Shown here one piece after another: positions 1,585 through 26,210 of a stretch of 26,210 bases of DNA. The notes beneath the pieces were generated by a model that was not told where the DNA came from, did no database searches, and saw only the letters and a program-made list of their open reading frames with translations. Source of the stretch: Chiloscyllium plagiosum. Lineage: Eukaryota. Numbering within the stretch: the first letter of the stretch is position 1; each line of letters starts with the position of its first letter. The translations under genes were made by a program, and so were the position numbers. The stretch is from assembly GCF_004010195.1 (NCBI RefSeq), contig NC_057718.1:81478864-81505073 (forward strand), written 5' to 3'.

Positions 1585-1814
1585 AAGAGAAAGTGAGGAC
1601 TGCAGATGCTGGAGATCAGAATTGAAAGTGTGGTGCTGGAAAAGCACAGCAGGTCAGACAGCATCTGAGGATCAGGAGAATCAATGTTTCAGGCATAAGC
1701 CCTTCATCATCAATCAGGAAGCCCATTCCTGATGAAGGGCTTATGCCTGAAATGTCGATTCTCCTGTTTCTTGGATGCTGCCTGACCTGCTGTGCTTTTC
1801 CAGCACCACACTGT
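1585..1814. mobile_element. Fold-back PLE-terminus mini-element (family A) with two hammerhead motifs
   Basis: Arms ~1627-1709 and ~1730-1812 are reverse complements. Same sequence family as 24879-25929. Splits CR1 RT. No clear TSD. Confidence 0.85.
1725..1760 (+). ncRNA. Minimal type-I hammerhead motif (family A), CpG-decayed
   Basis: attc CTGATGA a gggc ttat gcct GAA atgt c gatt. The opposite-strand partner at 1679-1710 has its core disrupted by a small insertion. Confidence 0.65.
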
Positions 1815-4264: not shown

Positions 4265-4360
4265 AGCCCTGGAGAAGGGTTACACCTGAAAAGTCGACTT
4301 TTGCGCCTCCTGATGCTGCCTGGTTCGCTGTGTTCTTCCAGCTTCTTGTCAATCTATCTC
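4265..4360 (+). mobile_element. PLE terminus fragment (family D) with degenerate hammerhead at 4265-4299
   Basis: agcc CTGGAGA a gggt tac acct GAA aagt c gact, followed by gatgctgcctgg...gctgtgttcttccagc as in the other families. Confidence 0.65.
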
Positions 4361-6809: not shown

Positions 6810-7332
6810 TCATAAGATTCATAAAGATGCACTGCATGGAAAAGGACCCTTCAGTCCAATTTGACCATGTAGATTAAATATTCTAAATTAATCTAGTCCC
6901 ATTTGCCAGCATTTGGACCATATCCCTCTAAACCCTTCCTGTTCATATACCTATCCAGATAACTTTTAAATGTTGTAATTGTACCAGCCTCCTCCACCAC
7001 CTCTGACAGCTTATTCCATATACACTGTGTATGTGTGAAAATGTTGCCCCTCGAGTCCCTTTTAAATCTTCCCCCCCTCCCCCGACCTTAAACCTATGCC
7101 CCCTAGTTTTGGACTCCCCTCCCCTGGGGAAAAGACCGTGTCTATTTATCTTATCCATGCCCCTCCTGATTTTATAAACTTCTATAAGGTCATCCCTCAG
7201 CCTCTGACACTCCAGGGAAAATAACCCTAACCTATTCAGCCTCTCCCTATAGCTCAAACCATCCAATCCTGGCAACGTCCTTATAAATCTTTTCTGAGCC
7301 CCATCAAGTTTCACAAGGATGTTGCCAGGATT
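6810..7332 (-). mobile_element. 5'-truncated CR1 LINE 3' end with a short inverted 5' segment
   Basis: ORF 6943..7335 reads QKRFIRTLPGLDGLSYRERLNRLGLFSLECQRLRDDLIEVYKI. Same family as 1-697. Confidence 0.9.
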
Positions 7333-7489
7333 CAAAAGCGCTGAAGCAGCCCTAAATAAAGGAGCATTATCTTACCCTGTTCTTTCAACCTCTGTACTTT
7401 TTCATACATCAACCACATTATTGACCTTTAATTCCAGTCATGTGTTGGCAAGTCAGTAGAATGGTTTTCACTTTGATCTAATCATTAAA

Positions 7490-8944: not shown

Positions 8945-9870
8945 AAACTAGGAGCAGGCCATTTGGCCCACCACATCTTCTCAGTCAATCATTATGACCA
9001 TAGCTGATCCTCTATCTCAATGCCATTTCCCATTTTCTACTTAGTCCTTGAGGCCTTTAAAATCTATAACTTTTTCAGTATCTTTCCTGAATATGTTCAG
9101 TGCCTTGGCCTTCATAGTCCTTTGTAGTGGACAGTTCCCCAGGTTCATTATCCTCTGAGTGAGGTTTGTTTTCCTCACCTCATTCCTAAATGATCTGTCC
9201 CATATCCTGAGACTATGTTCCCTGGCTCCTGACTCCCCTGTTAGAATTGTATATGTTTCAGACAGATCCCCTCTTATCCTAGTGAATATAGGTACAGTCA
9301 AACCAATCTTTCCACATAGGATGTAACCCAGATATCAGCTTGGTGAACATCTGTGCTACTCCACCTATAGCTAGGAGATGCTTTCTAAGGTAGGGAGACC
9401 AAAGTTGTGCACAATTCTGCAGGTTTGGTCTCACCAAGGCAATCTCACTGCATCACTACTGTATCACTACAGTAAGACATCCCTGCTTATGGACTCAAGT
9501 CATAGTGCAATAAAGGTCAATAAAGCATTTACTTTCTAATTACTTGCTGCACCTATTTTCATTGACTGGTATCCAAGGATACCAAGATCTTGTTCAACTC
9601 CAAATTACCTTGAAGCCTCCTTGTATCCCCCTCATTCCTGCCCAGTTTTGTGTTACTAGCAATCTTGTAAATATTATATTTGGTTCCAAGTCATTTATAT
9701 ATAACTCATGAATAGCTGGCGCTCAGGTACTGATGTCTGTGGTATCTTATTAGTGACTGTCTGTCATTTGGAAAAAGATCCAATTCTTCCTGAACTCTGT
9801 TTCCTGTCTATGAATCTAACCAAGTCTTGACCCATGCCAATATATTATCCCCTGTCCCGCGTGCTTTAAT
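8945..9870 (-). mobile_element. Decayed CR1 LINE RT and 3' end
   Basis: ORF 9041..9301 reads RIRGDLSETYTIL...REHSLRI...FRNEVR. The reverse of ccttggtgagaccaaacctgcagaattgtgcacaactttggtctcc (LVRP.L..CAQLWSP) is present. Confidence 0.8.
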
Positions 9871-10570
9871 TCATCCCCACTCTCAGCTGCAGAAGAGCCA
9901 GCAGTAGTTCCCAGGGCTGCTTCTGAGCCCTAGTATTGTCCAAGGCGGTGTCAGAAACCTTCTATCTCCACCTCAGCTTCCTTGAGTCATAACTGCGCTG
10001 AGCTATCCAACTGCTTCTGAAATGTCTTCCAAAGCCTCAACTACATAGCTAGTGACTTTCAACCACCTCCTTAACCACACTGCAAACAGCAACGCTTTTC
10101 CTGCTCCCATCCAATTGATTAACTCATCACCCCCATTTGTGGCCATCCGAGGTCCCACAACTGGATTTTCTCACCACTATTTTGAGGATAACTGAGGCTT
10201 GTCCAACATCTGTCACTGAGAAGAATCCAGAATGGTGGATGATGCATGTGTGGTCTGACCCATTTGTGCAGGCACTGGAACTCCCAGGGCATGCTGTTAA
10301 TTGAGGTTCTTGGCTTCCACCCTTAAAAAAGGTCAGTTAAGATTTCATTTGCCATTTTTCAACTGTACCCTTCCAGAATCAAGAACACTTTGGAAAATTT
10401 ACAACCAATACATTGATTATCTCTGCAACCATTACTTTTAAGCCTCTGGGATGTTGTCCATCAGACTCTTGAGACTCGTCAGTCTTTGTTCTAATAGTTT
10501 TCTTAGTTTTCTTTAACCTGGTTAAAAATCACACAACATCAGGTTATAGTCCAACAGGTATATGTGGAAA

Positions 10571-10605
10571 CACTAACTTTCAGAGCGTTGTTCCTTCATC
10601 AGCTG
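10571..10605 (-). ncRNA. Degenerate hammerhead motif (family B)
   Basis: Reverse complement: cag CTGATGA a ggaac aac gctct GAA agtt a gtg. Confidence 0.55.
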
Positions 10606-11202
10606 GTTGTGAAGAGTAAGATCATAAAATACAGAATTTATAGCCAAATGAGCACTCTGTCGTGGAGATGTGATGATACATTAGACAATTTTAGATCAAA
10701 TCTTTCATCTTTTAGAATAGGATGTGTTGGTTTCTGTTCTTTGATGTGTAAATCCCAGAACTTCTTTTAAATTACATTCTCAAGATAGCTAGCTTTTCGA
10801 ATAATAGTTGCCATCTCAGCTCAGACAATGCATTAAAGTGTGAGGTCTGTTTGTGTCGCAATGTTGAGTTAGACTGGTTCTACTTCTAAAGTGGGATTTA
10901 CAGCTTTTTACATGGATTCATGCAGTTTTTGAGCAAAATAATATGTAATTCTGCAAAACCAAATTCACCCTATAAACTTATATGTGTGCGCGTGTAGGAG
11001 AGACAGAATGAATGCATTCATGAGAGTGTGAGTGCATATCATAGTGTGTGCTTGGTTGTGTGTGTGTGAGAGAGAGAGAGATGGAGTATACGCCTTTGAA
11101 AGCGGCGCCATGGGTGAGAGTGCAGGGAGTGTATGTGTACATATGAGAGACAGCTTGTGTATGAGAGAGGGTGTGTGTGAGAGAGTGTATAGTGCAGTGG
11201 GG

Positions 11203-11507
11203 TCACCTGTAGTGTGACGTGAACCCAAAGTCCTGGTTGAGGTCATTCTCATGGGTACTGAACTTTGATATCAGCTTCTGCTCGGCCACTCTGCATTGTT
11301 GCTTGTCCCGAGGTCCACCTTGGAGGATGGTCACCCAAAGGTCTGAGGTCGAATGGCCTGGACAACTGAAGTGTTCCCTGACTGGGAGGGAACACTCTTG
11401 CCTGGTGATTGTTGTGTGGTGTCCATTCATCATTGTCTGAGTGTCTGCTTGGTCTTGCCAATGTACCATGCCTCAGGGCATCCTTGCCTGCAGCATATGA
11501 GATAGAC
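11203..11507 (-). pseudogene. PLE GIY-YIG endonuclease remnant
   Basis: Minus strand VYLICCRQGCPEAWYIG, then (frameshift) MNGHHTTI...LPVREHFS.PGH...AEQKLISKFSTHENDLNQDFGF. Confidence 0.85.
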
Positions 11508-11824
11508 GTGAGAATCCATGTAAAACACTGTAAATCCCACTTTAGAAATAGAACCGGTCGAATTCAACATTGGGACAGACAGACCTCACAACTTAATGCA
11601 TTGTCTGAGCTGAAATGTCACCTATTGTTAGAAAAGCTAGACCTATCTTGAGAATGTAATTTAAAAGAAGTTCTGGGATTTACATATCAAAGAACAGAAG
11701 CCAACACCTCATATTCTAAAAGATAAAAGACTTGATCTAAAATTGTCTAACGTATCATCACATCTCCATGACACTGTATTCATTTGGCTATAAATTCTGT
11801 ATGTTATGATCTTATACTCCACAA

Positions 11825-11859
11825 ACACTGATGAAGGAACAGCCCTCTGAAATCCAGTG
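11825..11859 (+). ncRNA. Degenerate hammerhead motif (family B)
   Basis: aca CTGATGA a ggaac agc cctct GAA atcc a gtg. Stems are eroded. Confidence 0.45.
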
Positions 11860-11983
11860 CTTCCAAATAAACCTGTTGGACTATAATCTGGTGATGTGTG
11901 ATTTTTAACTTTGTCCACCCCAGTCCAACACCGACATCTCCAAGTCATTCTTTAACCTGGTAATTGACATTGTTTTAAAGTTG

Positions 11984-12190
11984 AAAATGTGTTGCTGGAA
12001 AAGCGCAGCAGGTCAGGCAGCATCCAGGGAACAGGAGAATCGACGTTTCGGGCATAAGCCCTTCTTCAGGAAGAAGGGCTTATGCCCGAAACGTCGATTC
12101 TCCTGTTCCCTGGATGCTGCCTGGCTTGCGCTTTTCCAGCAACACATTTTCAGCTCTGATCTCCAGCATCTGCAGACCTCACTTTGTCCT
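11984..12190. mobile_element. Near-perfect palindromic PLE mini-element (family A)
   Basis: Arms ~11981-12067 and 12070-12152 around a 2-nt centre. Perfect 16-bp TSD cattgttttaaagttg at 11968-11983 and 12191-12206. Confidence 0.9.
12038..12073 (-). ncRNA. Minimal type-I hammerhead ribozyme, intact core (family A)
   Basis: Reverse complement: cttc CTGAAGA a gggc ttat gccc GAA acgt c gatt. Stem I is weak. The + strand mirror copy (12070-12100) lacks the CU of the core. Confidence 0.75.
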
Positions 12191-15050: not shown

Positions 15051-15233
15051 GGTAAAAACAATGACTGCAGATGCTGGAAACCAGATTCTGGATCAGTGGT
15101 GCTGGAAGAGCACAGCAATTCAGGCAGCATCCGACGAGCAGCAAATTTATTCCTGATGAAGGGCTTTTGCCCGAAACGTCGATTTTGCCACTCGTCGGAT
15201 GCTGCCTGAATTGCTGTGCTCTTCCAGCACCAC
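15051..15233. mobile_element. Fold-back PLE mini-element (family A variant) with a hammerhead in the loop
   Basis: Arms 15094-15145 and 15184-15235. TSD tggtcac(a/g)gtgttca at 15032-15046 and 15234-15248. Confidence 0.9.
15149..15184 (+). ncRNA. Minimal type-I hammerhead ribozyme, intact core (family A)
   Basis: attc CTGATGA a gggc tttt gccc GAA acgt c gatt. Predicted cleavage after C15180 (GUC). Confidence 0.8.
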
Positions 15234-17096: not shown

Positions 17097-17279
17097 TCGA
17101 GTATGGTGCTGGAAACGCACAGCAGCTCAGGCAGCATCCGAGGAGCAGGAGATTCAACATTTCGGGCAAAAGCCCTTCATCAGGAATGACTCATTCTGGA
17201 TGCTGCTTGACCTGCTGTGCCTTTCCAGCACCACAGACTCGATGCTAATCTCCAGCATCTGCAGTCCTCACTTTCGCCT
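17097..17279. mobile_element. Fold-back PLE mini-element (family A)
   Basis: Inverted arms ~17097-17139 and ~17198-17242. TSD atg(t/c)tgttctttattg at 17081-17096 and 17280-17295, inside CR1. Confidence 0.9.
17152..17187 (-). ncRNA. Minimal hammerhead motif (family A), core intact, palindrome CpG-decayed
   Basis: Reverse complement: attc CTGATGA a gggc tttt gccc GAA atgt t gaat. Confidence 0.7.
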
Positions 17280-18169: not shown

Positions 18170-18304
18170 GGCAGAAGTAGGTACTGAGATCAGAGTCAAG
18201 ATTAGAGTGGAATTCCTGATGAAGGGCTTTTGCCTGAAACTTTGATTTTTCTGCTTCTCGGATGCTGCCTGACCTGCTGTGCTTTTCCAGCACCACTCTA
18301 ATCT
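18170..18304 (+). mobile_element. 135-bp PLE mini-element (family A) with hammerhead at 18212-18247
   Basis: attc CTGATGA a gggc tttt gcct GAA actt t gatt. Inverted repeat caagattagagtgg/ccactctaatcttg. TSD tgcca(c/t)cacttaca at 18156-18169 and 18305-18318. Confidence 0.85.
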
Positions 18305-18491: not shown

Positions 18492-18878
18492 TTTCATATT
18501 TTCAATATTTACATATTTTTTATATTTCACCAGTTTCCTCATTTCCCTTCACCCACCTTACCTCAGTTCCAACCTTCCAGCTCAGCACCACCCCCATGAC
18601 CCATCCCATCTGTGCACCTTCCTTCCCATCTATACACTCCACTCTCCGACCTATCACCTTTAGCCCCACTTCCATCCACTATTGCACTCTCAGCTACCCC
18701 CCCAGCCCCACCCCCTCCCATTTATCTCTCCACCACTGAGGCTCCTAGCTTCATTCCTGATGATGGGCTTTTGCCCAAAACGTCGATTTTACTGCTCCTC
18801 AGATGCTGCCTGACCTGTGCTTTTCCAGCACCACTCTCTTGACGCTAAACTCCAACATCTGCAGTACTCACTTCCACC
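18492..18878 (+). mobile_element. 5'-truncated PLE 3' end (family A) with hammerhead at 18753-18788 (G12>A)
   Basis: C-rich UTR similar to 25620-25830, then attc CTGATGA t gggc tttt gccc AAA acgt c gatt. TSD tacatat(c/t)aacctttt at 18476-18491 and 18879-18894. Confidence 0.8.
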
Positions 18879-18905: not shown

Positions 18906-18947
18906 AGAGTTCTGAAGAAGGATCACTGGACCGAGAACATTAACTCT
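18906..18947 (+). ncRNA. Degenerate hammerhead motif (family C)
   Basis: agagtt CTGAAGA a ggatc act ggacc GAGA acat t aactct. 6-bp stem I agagtt/aactct. Confidence 0.6.
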
Positions 18948-19934
18948 GTTTTCTCTCCACAGATGCTGCCTGATCTGAGTTTTTCCAACAATTTCTGTCT
19001 TCATTCAACAACTTCTTTAAAAAAATTTTATGCCCACAGGATAAGACTATTGCTTCGGGTGTTTGAAATCAGAACTCCTGATTTCAGGGCTCCCAGATTT
19101 GGGAGTCACATCTGCCTTTGCTGCCTATTATCTAATGACAATCAGATCTGTTGGAAATGGGAGGACATCCTCTTGGTTCAGCTCTTGCTTGTCATTTTGG
19201 AAGGTCGTTATAGTTACCAGAATCTTCAAAAATTCAGGACCAAGTCTAGATCATGTTTTGCATCACACGGTCAAAAAGGAAGAATACCAAGAGCTTGTTG
19301 ACATGATAGCACCAAGCTTGAACTATCCTTACTGTCAAGAATCTGAAGGCTCAGGGCCACTGTATCTGTTGATTCAAGGTTTTAGAATGATTGCTTACCA
19401 GAGTCTGTGTTCAGAATATTTGCAATTTACAGCATATGAAATTGCTGACAGTTATGTGAATATCTAAACCAATACAGGACGTGTATTCACTGTCTTCCTG
19501 GAGAATAATTGTTTGATTGGAAACACAGCTCTCATTAATGACAAATGGTCTGTTCAGAGTTAATGTGTACCAATAAATGAGCCTAAAGATTTGACCTCAC
19601 GTCTCCTGCTAATCCTCATTCATGCCTCCAAATCTAATAATCCTTTAAAAGGAGCAGGGTCTAATGTTGGAAGCAATTTGCAGAAATAATTATATAAATG
19701 TAAAAACAAAAATTAAAGCAAAGTAAACATAGAGATTTAGCACGCTTCGTCATTTTGGAGCTTTCTGCCATGTAAAGGTGTAGGTGTCTTTGTTTAAGGT
19801 AAAGGAAAGCAGTAATTGATGCAGAGCTATCTGTATAATTTTCATGATTTGGAGATGCCGGTGTTGGACTGGGGTGTGCAAAGTTAAAAATCTTACAACA
19901 CCAGGTTATAGTCCAACAGGTTTAATTGGAAGCA

Positions 19935-19969
19935 CACTAGCTTTCGGAGCGACGCTCCTTCATCAGGTG
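19935..19969 (-). ncRNA. Minimal type-I hammerhead ribozyme, intact (family B)
   Basis: Reverse complement: cac CTGATGA a ggagc gtc gctcc GAA agct a gtg. Confidence 0.85.
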
Positions 19970-20524
19970 ATAGTGGAGAGCTCAATCCTAACACACAAAA
20001 TTTATAGCAAAAATTTACAGTGTGATGTAACTGAAATTAAACATTGAAAAATTGATTGTAAAGCCTTTCATCTGTTAGAATACAGTGATAGTTTCACTTC
20101 TTTCATGTGTAAATCACAAAACCTTTTTTTAAAAAAGTTGCATTCTCGGGTTAGCTGTTAACAATGGTGATAGCTGGACAATATGTTGAAGGTGTTAGCC
20201 CCCTGTGTTCTCTGTCTATGCCATGATGTTTAGATTGATTCTAATCTAAAAAGTGAGATAACGAAGTTTTACATGAATTCATGCGTACAAATTCACCCCA
20301 CAAAATATGTGTTCATGTGGGTCATTGTCTGTCTGGGTTGGGGGTTGTGAGTGTGAGAAAGTGTGTGTGTGTGTAGTGAGTGCAGAGTGTCTTAAGTCTG
20401 TGAGAGGGTGTGTGTCTGTAAGGGTGTGTGTGGGTGTCTGTGTGTATGTGTGTCCATGTGTATAGGAGTGTGTGTGTGTGTGTGTGTAGGAGTATCTGTG
20501 TGTGGGTGTATAGTGCAATGGTGG

Positions 20525-21109
20525 TCACCTGTAATGTGACATGAACCCAAGGTCCCGGTTGAGGCCCTCCCTATGGGTACCGAACTTAGCTATCAGCTTC
20601 TGCTCGGCCACTTTTCTCTGGTGCCTGTCCCGAAGTCTGCCTTGGAGGATGGTCACCCGAAGGTCCGAAGCTGAATGTCCTGGACCACTGAAGTGTTACC
20701 CAACTTGGAGGGAACCCTCCTGTCTGTTGATTGTTGTGCGGTGCCCATTCATCCGTTGTTGTAGCCTTTGCTTGGTTCCCCAATGTACCATGCCTCCGGG
20801 CATCCTTGCCTGCAACATATAAGATAGACAACGTTGGCTGAGTCACATGAGTACCTGCCATGTACAAGGTGGGAGGTGTCCCCACCTGTAATGGTGGTAT
20901 CTATGTCCACACTCTGACTCGTCTTTCAGCGTCTACCATGACAGGGTTGTATGGAGTTGTCCTCAGAGCCGGATAGCTTGCTACGAACAACGATCTGTTT
21001 GAGGTTTGGCGGTTGTTTAAAGGCAAGTAGTGGAGGTGTGGGGAAGGTCTTGGTGAGGTGCTCATCCTCATTGATAATGTGTTGCAAGTCACGAAGAACA
21101 TGGCATAAT
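20525..21109 (-). pseudogene. PLE linker and GIY-YIG endonuclease, disrupted
   Basis: LRDLQHII...FPTPPLLAFKQPPNLKQIVVRSKL...PCHGRR*...YSCDSANVVYLICCRQGCPEAWYIGE/(frameshift)...RMNGHR...AEQKLIAKFGTHREGLNRDLGF. Confidence 0.9.
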
Positions 21110-21489
21110 GGATTACATTGTACTTTGCTCAAAAACTGCATGCATTCATGTAGAACTCTGAGCTCAAAAACTGCATGAATTTATGTAAACTTCCGTTATC
21201 TCACTTTTTAGATTAGAATCAATCTAAACATCAGGTCATAGACAGAGAACACAGGGGGCTAACACCTTCAACATCTTGTCTAGCTATCACCATTGTTAAC
21301 AGCTAACCCGAGAATGCAACTCTTTTTTAAAAAAGTTTTGTGATTTACACATGAAAGAAGTGAAACTATCACTGTATTCTAACAGATAAAAGGCTTAACA
21401 GGCAATCAATTTTTCAATGTATAATTTCAGTTACATCACACTGTAAATTTTTGCTATAAGTTCTGTGTTAGGATTGAGCCCTCCACTAT

Positions 21490-21524
21490 CACCTGATGAA
21501 GGAGCGTCGCTCCGAAAGCTAGTG
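21490..21524 (+). ncRNA. Minimal type-I hammerhead ribozyme, intact (family B)
   Basis: cac CTGATGA a ggagc gtc gctcc GAA agct a gtg. Predicted cleavage after A21521 (CUA). Confidence 0.85.
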
Positions 21525-21857
21525 TGCTTCCAATTAAACCTATTGGACTATAACCTGGTGTTGTGTGATTTTTAACTTTGTATAATTTTCCTGTTCTTGT
21601 TTTATAAAGTATTTCCTTTCCTCTGTTTTCCATGCTAGTTTATTGAATCATGTTCAATAGGATCTAAGGACTTCTATAGAAAAACAAAATACTCCATTAA
21701 AGGTCTTCTTGGAAGTCAAGACTTCTGAAGAGAGAAATAGCGGTGATATTAACAAAGCCACAAGCTCGAGGTCAGACTATGGGCTACACTGTATGAAGAC
21801 ATCATCTCCTCTGTATCATGACCCATTATGTGTCTTCCAATAAAAACTGTAATAAAA

Positions 21858-22320
21858 GAATTGCATTAATATGTCAACTTTCGCAACTTTAAAACATCTC
21901 AAAGCACTTCACAAGCCAATGAAGTGTAATCTCCTAGGTAATATAGGAAATGTAGCAGCAAGCTCCTATAAACAGCAATGAGATAGTGACCAGATCCTTT
22001 ACGTATGTATATTTGTTTACGTTTCTGATTGGGGTGTAACTGCTCCGCAGGATATGAGGGGTGTTGGGACAGGCAGAATCCTGCACGTGTACCTGATTTA
22101 ACATTTGTTTTAGGCAAGATGACAATGCAGCTCTCCCCCTGACAATGGCAGTGCTGACAATGCAGCTCTCTCCCTGACAATGGCAGTGCTGACAATGCAG
22201 CTTTCGCCCCGTGCTACAGTCATGCATCAGCCTAGGTTTTGCACTCAAGTCAAAGGATTGGATTTGAACTGATGAACTTTTCTTTCAAAGACCAGATTGT
22301 TGCTGACCAACCACAACTGA
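21858..22320 (-). mobile_element. tRNA-headed Deu-domain SINE (SacSINE1-like)
   Basis: Minus-strand Pol III B box gttcaaatcc (22260-22269) and eroded A box near 22300-22320. Body (aaagcacttcacaagccaatgaagt, aaacagcaatgagatagtgaccagat, gacaatgcagc..ctccc) matches recalled shark DeuSINE sequence. Confidence 0.65.
22120..22210. repeat. 35-bp minisatellite, ~2.6 copies
   Basis: tgacaatgcagctctc(c/t)ccctgacaatggcagtgc starting at 22120, 22155 and 22190. Confidence 0.9.
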
Positions 22321-22619
22321 TTCAACTGCTCGTGGGTATGGCCGTAAAATGCCCAGACTCTACAATGTATGCGCTCAGAGCTTGCTGCTATAAAAAAAAA
22401 TGATTTGTAATGCTTTTTCCTGAGAGAGGAAATAAAAGTCACACAGCCATCAACTGTGAACTGTTTCTGTTCTGCTTGTGACTTCACAAGACCAAGAAGG
22501 CTGAGTTATGGTTTTTCCTTTTGTAAACCATTTTTTCAAAACAAAATTAAACAATATATAATGGTTTCAAATCATTCAAAAATGTAGCCAGATCACAGGT
22601 TGACTAGATCACGGCCCTG

Positions 22620-23230
22620 GAATTACAATGTGTCTCGCCAATGCAATTTGTGTGAAGAGATGCATTTTGGGAAGTACAGTGAGGTAAGGCAGCATAAATA
22701 AAATGGTACAGTTTCAGAGGGCGACCTTCAGTAAAGAGAGCTACAAGTTGAAATGCCCAAATCTTTGAAGGTTGCTGAACAAGTTGGTGAAGATGTTTAA
22801 AGATTAAATGGGATCTCCTTTACAAATAGAAACAAAGCATTTATACTAAATCTTTATAAATCTCTGGTTAGGCAACATCTAAAGTATTCTGTTCAATTTT
22901 GGATACCACATTTTAAGGAGGATATTAAAGTCATGTCGTGGGTTCAGAGGAATGCATCATTTACCATAATGATTAACAAGAATGAGGGGACAATGAAGTG
23001 AGAAGCCTAAAGAAGCTGGGTTAGTTCTCATTAGGGTAAGGTAACTAGAATTTTAGAAGAAATATTTGACATTAAGAAACATTTTGATTGAGTAAATAGG
23101 GATGAACCTATTTGGAGGAAGGTCAATGACCAGAGAGTACACATCTTGGGTTAAATGGTAAAGGAACCAAAGACAAGATGAGTATTTTTATAAAACACAA
23201 GTTTGTCAAGCTGAATGATGGTGTGCAATG
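22620..23230 (+). mobile_element. Old CR1 3' fragment
   Basis: ctttataaatctctggttaggcaacatctaaagtattctgttcaattttgg (LYKSLVRQHLKYSVQFW). Confidence 0.7.
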
Positions 23231-23279
23231 GATTTCCACAAAGGTCAGTGCAAGAACCACTGACCAACTCTGAGACTGT

Positions 23280-24298
23280 AATAGCGAAATGTTTCAGAAT
23301 TTGCCAATGATGCCAAAATTGGAGGAGTCATATGTAGTAAGGATGCTACTATTCAATTTCACCAGCAAAACGGGCAGACAAGTGGTAGATTGAGTTAGTA
23401 TAGAAAAGTGTGAAGTGATATATTTTGACAGGAGGAGTAGGGAGAGGCAATATAGACATAATAGTACAATGCTAAAGGGATGAAGGGGCTGAATTTCTTG
23501 TGCACAGATCTTTGAAGGTGCAAGAGCATGGTTAGCATAAAAGGAGTTTGGGCTTTATAAACAGATGTATTGAGTACAAAAGCAGGCAAATTGTAAATTT
23601 GAAATTTTAAAAACTCTGGTTAGGCTACATGAGTATTGTCTTTAGTTCTGATCTCCATCCTTCAGGCATGATGTGAAGACTCTCATGATGAGGGAATTTA
23701 ACAACAAGGTTATCTTGGAGTTAATTTCCATGGAGCAAAGGTGGTTTTAGGAGATGTGATGAAAATTGTACAAGGTTATAGTGCATCTAGATAAGGTAAT
23801 AAAATCAAAGCTATTCTCCTTACCTAATGTACAAGGGCTAATTGTCACCTATTTAAAGTCTTTAGCAAGAGATGGGCAGCAGAGCTTTCATACACTGCTA
23901 ATGACATCAGACTGTCTGCTATGAGAGAGAAGTAGAGGTAGGGATATTTGGAGGGATTTGTTTGGCCACTTATGGGAAATAAGCTTGTAGGGCTATGGGG
24001 ACAGAGCAGGGACTGGAGCTAAAAAAAACTAAAAGAACTGCGGATGCTGTAAATTTGAAATAAAAACAGAAGTTGCTGGAAAAGCTCAGCAGGTCTGGTA
24101 GCATCTGTGAAGACAAATGAAAGTTAACATTTTGGGTCCGATGACCCTCCTCAGATCAGTTCTGAGGAAGATCACTGAACCCAAAACATTAACTTTGATT
24201 TCTCTTCACAAGGGATTGGAACTGACTGAACTGCTTTGCAGAGAACGAGCATGAATTTGATTGGTTAAGTGGCCTCCTTCTGTGTCACAATGAGTCAT
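23280..24298 (+). mobile_element. Old CR1 RT C-terminus and tail, interrupted at 24021-24210
   Basis: tttgccaatgatgccaaaattggagga (FA.D.KIGG), aagtgtgaagtgatatatttt (KCEVIYF), ctctggttaggc. Tail tggcctccttctgtg. Confidence 0.75.
24021..24210. mobile_element. Fold-back PLE mini-element (family C) with two back-to-back degenerate hammerheads (24122-24156 -, 24158-24194 +)
   Basis: agtt CTGAGGA a g atcactgaaccc AAA acat t aact and its mirror copy. TSD aggga(c/t)tgga(g/a)ct at 24008-24020 and 24211-24223. Confidence 0.8.
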
Positions 24299-24409
24299 GG
24301 AGGTCTGCACCTTTGAAAAAGGCCCTTCAGCCCATTGAATCTGTGCCAGTCAAAGGCATACATCTAACTATTTTATGGCTATAGTTCTATGTTATGGTGA
24401 TCTGAACTC

Positions 24410-24610
24410 ATTTCCTGAAAGGATAGTGGCAACAGATTCAATAGGAATTTTCAAAAGGGAATTGCTTTTATAAATGAAGGGAGGAATTTTCAAAGCTATG
24501 GCAAAACAGCAGGTGAGGTAAGTGCAGCTATTCGAAAAGCTCTTTCAAAGGCTCAACACAGGCACAATCAATCAAATTGCCGCCACCTTTGCTGAATGAT
24601 TCTAGGATTC
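24410..24610 (+). mobile_element. CR1 3' tail fragment
   Basis: cctgaaaggatagtggcaacagattcaata...ttcaaaagggaattg...gctatgg...gattctaggattc. Confidence 0.55.
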
Positions 24611-24972
24611 AGCAGTGTATAACAATTAACGATCATTTAACTTCATCTCTTTCCTTTGCTAAGGGAATGGACTGCTATCATTTCCTTTCATTACAATGAT
24701 AACATTCATGTGTCACTGGTCCTACATTTCATAACTGAGGATGTTCAATAATTCATAACATCCCATATCTTTTCCAGCAGGTGGTCTTTAACTCACAGTA
24801 TTCAAACTACAGGGTGAAGATCTAAAATGTTACAGGCTACTTTTCTACATCTTGGCAAAAAAGGGTTATATTTTAACTAGGAGAAAGTGAGGTCTGCAGA
24901 TGCTGGAGATCAAAGTTGAAACTTTATTGCTGGAACAGCACAGCAGGTCAGGCAGCATCCAGGGAACAGGAG

Positions 24973-25008
24973 ATTCGACGTTTCGGGCACAGGCCCTTCT
25001 TCAGGAAT
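24973..25008 (-). ncRNA. Minimal type-I hammerhead ribozyme, intact (family A)
   Basis: Reverse complement: attc CTGAAGA a gggc ctgt gccc GAA acgt c gaat. Confidence 0.87.
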
Positions 25009-25202
25009 GAGCAGAGAGTGTTCAGCAGGAGAAGATAAAAGGTAGGGAGGAGGGACTTGGAGGAGGGGAGTTGGAAATGTGATAGGTGGAAAGAGGTCAA
25101 GGTGAGGGTGATAGGTCGGAGTAGGACGGAGGCGGAGAGGTCAAGAAGAAGACAGCAGGTCAGGAAGGCGGTGCCGGGCGGGAAGGATCCGGCTGAGACA
25201 AG

Positions 25203-25697
25203 GTGGGCACCTTCCCTTGCAACCGCAGGAGGTGCAACACTTGCGCCCACACCTCCCCCCTCACTTCCCTCCAAGGCCCCAAAGGAAACTTCCATATCCG
25301 CCACAGATTCACCTGCACCTCCACCCACATCATCTACTGCATCCGCTGCAGCCGGTGTGACCTCCTCTATATTGGGGAGACAGGCCGCCTACTTGCGGAG
25401 CGATTCAGAGAGCACCTCTGGGCCACCCGGACGAACCAACCCAACCAACATGTAGCACAGCATTTCAACTCCCCCTCCCACTCCACCGAGGATATGCAGG
25501 TCATTGGACTCATCCACCGCCAAACCACAACAACCCGACGGTCGGAGGAGGAGCGTCTTATCTTCCGACTGGGAACCCTCCAACCACAGGGGATGAACTT
25601 GGACTTCACCAGTTTCTTCATCCCCCCTCCCCCCACCTGGCTCAGCCGAATCCCTCCAGCCCGGCACCACCTTCCTGACCTGCAGTCTTCTTCTTGA
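25203..25697 (+). CDS. PLE Cys-rich linker and GIY-YIG endonuclease domain (open frame, 5'-truncated, no RT, no ATG start)
   Basis: CNRRRCNTC, HIIYCIRCSRCDLLYIGETGRLLAERFREH, HFNSPSH, EERLIFRLGTLQPQGMN. Confidence 0.85.
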   Translation: MGTFPCNRRRCNTCAHTSPLTSLQGPKGNFHIRHRFTCTSTHIIYCIRCSRCDLLYIGETGRLLAERFREHLWATRTNQPNQHVAQHFNSPSHSTEDMQVIGLIHRQTTTTRRSEEERLIFRLGTLQPQGMNLDFTSFFIPPPPTWLSRIPPARHHLPDLQSSS

Positions 25698-25829
25698 CCT
25701 CTCCGCCTCCACCCTACTCCGACCTATCACCCTCACCTTGACCTCTTTCCACCTATCACATTTCCAACGCCCCTCCTCCAACTCCCTCCTCCCTACCTTT
25801 TATCTTCTCCTGCTGAACACTCTCTGCTC

Positions 25830-25865
25830 ATTCCTGAAGAAGGGCATGTGCCCGAAACGTCGAAT
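25830..25865 (+). ncRNA. Minimal type-I hammerhead ribozyme, intact (family A)
   Basis: attc CTGAAGA a gggc atgt gccc GAA acgt c gaat. Predicted cleavage after C25861 (GUC). Confidence 0.88.
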
Positions 25866-25944
25866 CTTCTGTTCCCTAGATGCTGCCTGACCTGCTGTGC
25901 AGTTCCAGCAATAAAGTTTCAACTTTGATATGCAGCAAGACCTA

Positions 25945-26210
25945 ACTTGGAGATGTTGGTAGTGGACTGTGGTGGACAAAGATAAAAATCACACAACACC
26001 AGGTTATAGTCCAACAGGTTTATTTGGAAACACTAGCTTTCAAGGCACTGCTTCTTCATTAGGTGGTTGTGGAGAATAAGGTCATAAAACAGCATTTATA
26101 TCCAAATGAGTACAGTGTCATGGAGATGTGATGATACATTAAACAATTTAAGATAAATTTAGGATGGGATGTGTTGGTTTCTGTTCTTTGGTATGTAAAT
26201 CCCAGAACTT
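25945..26210 (-). mobile_element. Family B PLE pseudo-LTR running off the window, with mutated hammerhead at 26031-26065
   Basis: Homologous to 10523-10770. Reverse complement cac CTAATGA a gaagc agt gcctt GAA agct a gtg (G5>A). Confidence 0.85.

What the first reader, a model, noticed from the sequence alone, without database searches (positions are those of the whole stretch)
18906..25865. Structural covariation across four hammerhead families
Seen: the core is constant while the helices change compensatorily. Family A: stem I ATTC/GAAT, stem II GGGC/GCCC with variable loops (ttat, tttt, ctgt, atgt), ACGT-C. Family B: CAC/GTG, GGAGC/GCTCC, AGCT-A. Family C: AGAGTT/AACTCT, GGGTC/GACCC, AC(G)T-T. 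Family D (4265): GGGT/ACC(T). Inference: selection acted on RNA fold and catalysis in independent PLE lineages, with three different cleavage triplets (GUC, CUA, GUU).
Basis: partly seen in the sequence, partly recalled or inferred. Interest (0 to 1): 0.75.

Follow-up and report, generated by a model that had tools for sequence, protein, structure and literature searches.

The report
Penelope retrotransposon hammerheads, real covariation
These are copies of a small RNA motif predicted to cut itself, carried on the end repeats of Penelope-like jumping genes; its paired changes between families are real, but the pairing of motif and element is already published, most copies here are mutated, and three of the four families are relatives rather than independent lineages.

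Summary
The motifs are minimal type I hammerheads in the end repeats (pLTRs) of Penelope-like elements (PLEs), the kind described with covariation in 2014 (PMC4209133). The window has 19 copies (A 10, B 5, C 3, D 1); 6 of 19 keep core, stem II and palindrome, and all C and D copies are broken. Covariation holds between subfamily consensuses. In the A/C/D clade, 8 of 9 derived pair states stay paired and 6 change on both sides; 0 of 20,000 neutral simulations match this. A sister of C outside the window swaps the core pair C3-G8 to U3-A8 (96 of 100 listed), also already published. Corrections: 7 of 10 A copies have a U·U mismatch in stem I; C's stem I is 4 bp, not 6; A, C and D share one pLTR tail, so the window holds two lineages, not four. 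Copies start at the motif's 5' edge (129 of 360), rarely at the cut site (16 of 360), so uncut RNA is likely the template. Catalysis is untested. The scan noted this before (44 findings, at least 11 genomes).

The parts
25830..25865 (+). Family A1 minimal hammerhead, intact; stem I ATTC/GAAT, triplet GUC; predicted cut after 25861
24973..25008 (-). Family A1 minimal hammerhead, intact; inverted arm of the same insertion
24878..25937 (.). Two-armed (inverted pLTR) A1 PLE insertion; arms 307 nt, 94% complementary; 24879-26210 is 100% identical at 5 other loci (possible assembly artefact)
25197..25697 (+). 5'-truncated PLE ORF end: CxxxxCxxC linker plus GIY-YIG endonuclease (Pfam PF01541, 24.1 bits, cut-off 22.6)
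21490..21524 (+). Family B minimal hammerhead, intact; stem I CAC/GTG, triplet CUA
19935..19969 (-). Family B minimal hammerhead, intact; inverted arm of the same insertion
19844..21581 (.). Two-armed B-family PLE insertion with a broken endonuclease fragment on the minus strand (about 20586-21180)
18908..18945 (+). Family C copy, core broken (GAAA box disrupted, triplet reads AUU)
24122..24158 (-). Family C copy, G12 mutated, extra A missing; left arm of a short palindromic insert
24158..24194 (+). Family C copy, core and stem II broken; right arm of the palindromic insert
4265..4299 (+). Family D copy, core broken (A6 and 15.2 mutated)
1680..1760 (.). Two family A copies back to back (C3 at 1711 minus, 1729 plus), decayed, U·U stem I
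12038..12099 (.). Palindromic pair of family A copies (C3 at 12069 minus, core intact; 12068 plus, 5'-clipped)
15149..15184 (+). Family A copy, core intact, U·U stem I
17152..17187 (-). Family A copy, CpG-decayed palindrome and triplet
18212..18247 (+). Family A copy, decayed
18753..18788 (+). Family A copy, G12 mutated
10571..10605 (-). Family B copy, decayed; arm of a two-armed insert (about 10516-11945)
11825..11859 (+). Family B copy, decayed; other arm
26031..26065 (-). Family B copy, core broken

Best explanation
The motifs are minimal type I hammerhead folds at the start of the end repeats (pLTRs) of Penelope-like retroelements, their helices change in pairs between subfamilies, and they are likely kept by selection on parent elements whose RNA is predicted to cut itself only as a pair of motifs or with help from the element's protein. 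Shown: the motif, its position 110-250 nt behind RT-plus-GIY-YIG frames in family A and behind endonuclease fragments in B, C and D, the paired changes, the palindrome at 15.1-16.1, the decay of genomic copies and the positions of their ends. Inferred: a transcript running pLTR-ORF-pLTR carries two same-strand motifs that swap their 4-nt palindromes to build helix III and cut after H17, processing the element RNA. New insertions are mostly copied from uncut RNA: reverse transcription starts at two sites in the tail and often runs off at the motif's first bases. The window's copies are single, or face each other on opposite strands, and most are mutated, so they are likely inert.
For: A stem-blind scan of 1.124 Mb of random genome gave 148 core hits, 57 with stem II, stem I and palindrome together, against 0-1 in each of 5 shuffles (copies are not independent). 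A/C/D consensuses: 8 of 9 derived pair states paired, 6 double changes; control tail column pairs 27.5% and 10.5%; 0 of 20,000 neutral simulations at each of three rates give at least 6 doubles with at most 1 break. Ten real copies, 7 pairs: 91.4% of cells paired against 67.3% shuffled (0 of 500), 17-52% when slid. The palindrome flips ACGT to AGCT in B. U3-A8 in 96 of 100 listed hits of subfamily C3, 311 hits in all. ORF linkage. 5' ends at -10..-1 of C3 in 129 of 360 copies, within 3 nt of the cut in 16 of 360. RNA reads of a run with the same species label as the best DNA holder have 104 loose ends at 25830 and no pile of molecule ends. 3' ends are bimodal. Literature: PMC4209133 (dimers, low activity); PMC11167929 (protein-assisted cleavage, uncut RNA is the main template, two RT starts).
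Against: No cleavage was measured. Stem I is only 3-4 bp, and subfamilies A2-A4, which outnumber A1 in the random sample (179 against 13 copies), spread with a U·U mismatch in it. RNAfold puts A2, A3 and C1 in an alternative fold without stem I. Over all 11 consensuses, 6 of 25 derived states are unpaired. The core decays slightly more slowly than invariant tail positions even among copies (6.0% against 8.0%, p=0.03), which pure post-insertion neutrality does not predict; alignment anchoring may explain it. I recovered no complete pLTR-ORF-pLTR parent. HHR mutants did not impair insertion in vitro (PMC11167929), and Naiad PLEs spread without canonical HHRs (PMC8557442), so what selection protects is open. 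The RNA library is fragmented and single-cell, a weak test of ends.
Confidence: 0.7

Rival explanations
1. The fold is selected as a structure, for example a protein-binding site or a stop for reverse transcription at the RNA's 5' end, and cleavage is rare or irrelevant in vivo.
For: Copies span the cut site and start upstream of it. Short, mismatched stem I in abundant subfamilies. HHR mutants insert normally in vitro, and no RNA-seq reads end at the cut site in Anolis (PMC11167929).
Against: All catalytic residues are invariant across the well-sampled consensuses while position 7 and loop II vary. The 3-8 pair, needed for cleavage (C3G/G8C rescue in PMC11167929), changes as a pair. H17 is never G in 11 of 11 consensuses.
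Confidence: 0.17
2. The conserved letters are mainly a DNA-level internal promoter (an initiator at the 5' strand of stem I plus downstream elements), and the hammerhead look is secondary.
For: The bases at -6..-1 read TCATTC (A, 38 of 41), TCAGTT (commonest in C, 9 of 30) and CCAGTC (D, 17 of 31), like the initiator consensus TCAKTY (recalled), and copies start there. Drosophila Penelope has an internal promoter with Inr and DPE (PMC2377424 passages).
Against: A promoter does not explain double changes on both strands of stems I and II, the palindrome flip or U3-A8. B and C3 do not fit the initiator consensus. Spacing to the GAAA box differs between families. In family E the motif lies at least 70 nt inside the repeat.
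Confidence: 0.08
3. The covariation is an artefact of picking sequences by a hammerhead pattern, of few related tips and of CpG decay.
For: Only 4 families in the finding, 3 of them related. G-to-A plus C-to-T double transitions appear in single decayed copies. Shuffle controls ignore relatedness.
Against: Families were collected stem-blind or by the tail only. The tree-based simulation keeps relatedness. Several double changes are transversions (I.3 G-C to U-A, II.4 C-G to G-C, palindrome flip).
Confidence: 0.05

Closest known systems
Minimal hammerheads (min-HHR) in pLTRs of metazoan Penelope-like elements (Cervera and De la Pena 2014, PMC4209133; parts 1-2 of 4 read)
   Same: [quoted passage not shown]
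   Different: The text I read names no cartilaginous fish (supplements not seen). Stem II here is 4-5 bp in A-D against 7-8 bp in Schistosoma. Stem I is 3-4 bp with a fixed U·U mismatch in A2-A4. Copies start at stem I.
Poseidon element of Anolis carolinensis, PAc (Frangieh et al. 2024, PMC11167929; parts 1-2 of 4 read)
   Same: HHR in the pLTR, two RT start sites giving an optional tail (bimodal 3' ends here), uncut RNA as the main template.
   Different: PAc is Poseidon-type with the ORF starting inside the HHR. A-D carry the CxxxxCxxC linker described for Neptune (PMC8557442 passage). A sharp pile-up of 5' ends at stem I was not in the parts I read.
Animal non-LTR retrozymes (bioRxiv 10.64898/2026.07.22.740005; part 1 of 5 and passages)
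   Same: Type I HHRs related to PLE pLTRs; found in one chondrichthyan genome.
   Different: Retrozymes are head-to-tail tandem arrays. The window has no tandem array of these units; copies are single or inverted and are linked to ORFs.

Membership tests
min-HHR of PLEs | Core CUGANGA ... GAAA ... UH in type I order | tested here: met
   Met in all four family consensuses; intact with stem II in 6 of 19 window copies
min-HHR of PLEs | No helix III; palindromic 15.1-16.1 | tested here: met
   ACGT in A, C, D and AGCT in B
min-HHR of PLEs | Extra nucleotide between A9 and 10.1; G10.1-C11.1 pair | tested here: met
   11 of 11 consensuses have the extra base; G-C in 9, G-U in 2 thinly sampled ones
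min-HHR of PLEs | Helices I and II supported by covariation | tested here: met
   one fixed U·U mismatch; R-scape not available
min-HHR of PLEs | Located in the terminal repeat of an RT plus GIY-YIG element | tested here: met
   A: 684-aa frame ending 158 nt before the motif (both Pfam scores just under cut-off, window fragment above it). B, C, D: fragments upstream
min-HHR of PLEs | Self-cleavage as a dimer or with protein help | not testable with these tools
   No assay; no pile of read ends at the cut site in a weak RNA test
Neptune clade of PLEs | CX2-5CxxC linker between RT and EN | tested here: met
   Seen in translations beside A, B, C/C3 and, degraded, D; motif from a PMC8557442 passage
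Neptune clade of PLEs | RT phylogeny with reference Neptune elements | not tested
   No reference PLE proteins were held
Non-LTR retrozyme | Tandem array with an HHR in consecutive units, no ORF | tested here: not met
   No such tandem in the window; families linked to ORFs

The most novel reading that the evidence does not exclude
In these Neptune-type elements the ribozyme begins at the transcript's first base: the 5' strand of stem I is also the RNA polymerase II initiator. Cleavage would then remove a capped leader of about 32 nt and switch the RNA between an uncut, copied form and a cut form. The promoter constraint would explain why stem I stops at 4 bp and tolerates a U·U mismatch. Natural subfamilies (perfect or mismatched stem I, C3-G8 or U3-A8, GUC/GUU/CUA) would then form a graded series for testing whether PLEs need cleavage.
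Probability: 0.25. Interest if true: 0.55.

Novelty: new member of a known kind. Interest (0 to 1): 0.22.

Why it matters
It adds a tree-controlled case that PLE hammerheads are held by selection on fold and probably on catalysis, in a genome where the repeat ends are very dense (387 tail hits in 1.124 Mb). That PLEs carry covarying minimal hammerheads is known since 2014. The open question is what the cut is for, since uncut RNA seems to be what gets copied. These subfamilies are convenient natural variants for that test, but the finding does not answer it.

Tried and rejected
Rfam: no hammerhead model hit; the miRNA hits are palindromic pLTR pairs and were rejected. My first genome pattern for family A was one base short and caught deletion variants and family D, so its 929 hits are not a count of A. 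Within-family covariation among copies: the 27 double Watson-Crick changes are misassigned subfamilies or paired transitions, not evidence of selection on copies. MAFFT misaligned stem II beyond its first pair, so one search counts only 7 pairs; stem II pairs 2-4 were counted by parsing. Cap signature (extra G before the start): not found, counts small. Expression: no RNA holder listed; 18 of 24 runs hold part of the stretch, none on record as RNA. Run X21 laid 0 reads; X20 reads lay on both strands, as read-through of dispersed copies would. A junction test for the 33-copy two-armed unit in three DNA runs listed no bridging piece; inconclusive, because these are contigs of an organism not shown to be the same species. 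Lunse et al. (PLE hammerhead dimers) is not held and is known only through a review passage. A paper search for hammerhead ribozyme + Penelope + shark gave one paper, where 'shark' is the etymology. Supplements of PMC4209133 were not opened and may list shark motifs. Rows dropped: loci L091-L103 and L121 were left out of subfamily clustering as duplicates of the window; 23 of 387 tail hits (near locus edges or N) and 4 low-scoring ones were left out of the end counts. C2, B3 and F rest on 10, 5 and 1 copies. The host was not identified; 'shark-like' is recalled from repeat content and earlier AI notes.
Full report
Setting. The window is G000:C9:81478864-81505073 of a 3.56-Gb genome. It is repeat-rich, and the only coding signal I tested positive is a PLE endonuclease fragment (Pfam GIY-YIG at 25197-25694; 1 of 7 frames scanned had a hit). 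The host was not identified.

The observation. A structure scan finds 6 motifs in the window against 0.47 in shuffles. Homology search gives 19 copies with a hammerhead part: A 10, B 5, C 3, D 1. Only 6 of 19 copies keep core, stem II and palindrome. All three C copies and the D copy are broken, so their triplets and stems are consensus readings; they are borne out by 221 and 46 exact intact hits elsewhere. Seven of ten A copies have GATT, not GAAT, on the 3' side of stem I, and this U·U mismatch is fixed in subfamilies A2-A4. C's stem I is 4 bp.

What carries them. Near-full frames of family A (for example 684 aa, RVT_1 and GIY-YIG just under cut-off) end 158 nt before the motif. B, C and D have endonuclease or RT fragments upstream on the same strand. 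A CxxxxCxxC linker points to the Neptune type (PMC8557442 passage); no phylogeny with references was run. A, C and D fall in one BLAST cluster and share a tail 57-63% identical. Endonuclease fragments are 41-53% (C) and 29-57% (D) identical to A1, and RT fragments beside C3 are 47-66% identical. B has a different tail and an RT 29% identical over 365 aa. The window therefore shows two lineages, not four. Common descent does not weaken the covariation argument; it is what makes it testable.

Is the covariation real? I sampled 116 random 10-kb loci (1.124 Mb without N). A stem-blind core scan gave 148 hits, 57 with both stems and the palindrome, against 0-1 in five shuffles. Among 7 subfamily consensuses of the A/C/D clade, over 10 pairs, 9 derived states occur: 8 paired, 6 changed on both sides, 1 broken. 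Control column pairs in the tail stay paired in 27.5% and change doubly in 10.5% (binomial p 2e-4 and 9e-5; controls not independent). On a tree from the tail, 0 of 20,000 neutral simulations at each of three rates give at least 6 doubles with at most 1 break, though 6 doubles alone are common at higher rates (14% and 71%). Over all 11 consensuses the tally is 19 paired, 17 double, 6 broken of 25. On 10 real copies, 7 alignable pairs are 91.4% paired against 67.3% shuffled, and 6 of 7 have a double change. The strongest sign of selection on the active fold lies outside the window: subfamily C3 reads U3-A8 in 96 of the first 100 of 311 hits (2 C3-A8, 2 U3-C8, no G8) and also changes pair I.2 on both sides. 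R-scape was not available.

Where selection acts. Genomic copies decay: the core is intact in 90 of 183 spanning copies, G12 (a CpG) is hit in 25% and other core positions in 5.8%. The core is slightly better kept than invariant tail positions (6.0% against 8.0%, p=0.03). This may be anchoring bias, but I cannot exclude weak retention. Of 63 intact-core copies, those on 9 locus strands have a same-strand neighbour within 10 kb, 4 of them within the same subfamily. The pattern fits selection on transposing parents followed by decay of the copies (inference).

Mechanism. Without helix III the motif should need a partner; PLE min-HHRs cut weakly as dimers (PMC4209133) or with the element's protein (PMC11167929). 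Of 360 tail-seeded copies, 129 begin at -10..-1 of C3, 52 in the 129 nt further upstream and 16 within 3 nt of the cut (the C model's upstream part rests on 4 copies). All 23 C3 contexts differ upstream, apart from inverted arms and RT fragments. RNA reads show 104 loose ends at 25830, the A of stem I, and no pile of molecule ends. 3' ends cluster at about +55 to +70 and at the models' ends, +80 or beyond, like the two RT starts of the Anolis element. So uncut RNA that begins at the motif is the likely template, and cleavage, if it occurs, acts on another share of the RNA. The start resembles an initiator in A, C and D, but not in B or C3. Family E, absent from the window (4,524 exact hits), has its motif well inside the repeat. 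The earlier AI notes gave me the lead on 5' ends; I tested it here.

Comparison and verdict. Every structural feature, the within-genome covariation and the U3-A8 variant are in PMC4209133. My searches found no paper on shark PLE hammerheads, but a 2026 preprint includes a chondrichthyan genome with HHR retrozymes, and this scan has noted the same thing 44 times and the U3-A8 family in this genome twice. A correct catch with some errors of detail, a new member of a known kind; interest 0.22.

Noticed in passing
window:24879-26210; L198-L202; L091-L103: 1332 bp (two-armed A1 insert plus a decayed B piece) is 100% identical at 5 other loci on different contigs; 4 of the 6 end at an N gap at the same base. 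The inversion junction occurs 33 times in the assembly. Either gap-filling with a collapsed repeat or a very young unit-amplified two-armed element.
   Followed up: partly
window:25879-25930 and tails of A, C, D, B, E: Downstream of the hammerhead most families can form a 7-9 bp long-range stem (GAUGCUG/CAGCAUC in A, C, D; other letters in B and E) whose 3' strand lies in the optional tail; RNAfold found it in 7 of 8 tails. It is invariant within A/C/D, so there is no covariation support; a possible RT-binding or start structure.
   Followed up: partly
L283:1148-1510, L294, L298: In 3 of 20 C3 loci an RT-coding fragment abuts the motif's first bases on the same strand, as a template jump at the RNA's 5' end would leave.
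   Followed up: no
L263-L282, L048, L250: Further hammerhead families E and F (extra U, longer stem II, endonuclease fragments unlike those of A and B), not in the window; the E/F pattern has 4,524 exact hits.
   Followed up: partly
window:12018-12119, 15111-15218, 24066-24234: Short palindromic inserts of two pLTR ends back to back; the first two give spurious Rfam miRNA hits.
   Followed up: partly
window:1-700, 1000-2800, 6820-7380, 9040-9330: Decayed fragments that look like CR1-type LINE 3' ends (recalled, not tested; two frames gave no Pfam hit); one has an A-family inverted pair inserted at about 1584-1812.
   Followed up: no
window:26211 onward (L088): The window ends at an assembly gap of at least 2 kb of N.
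   Followed up: yes
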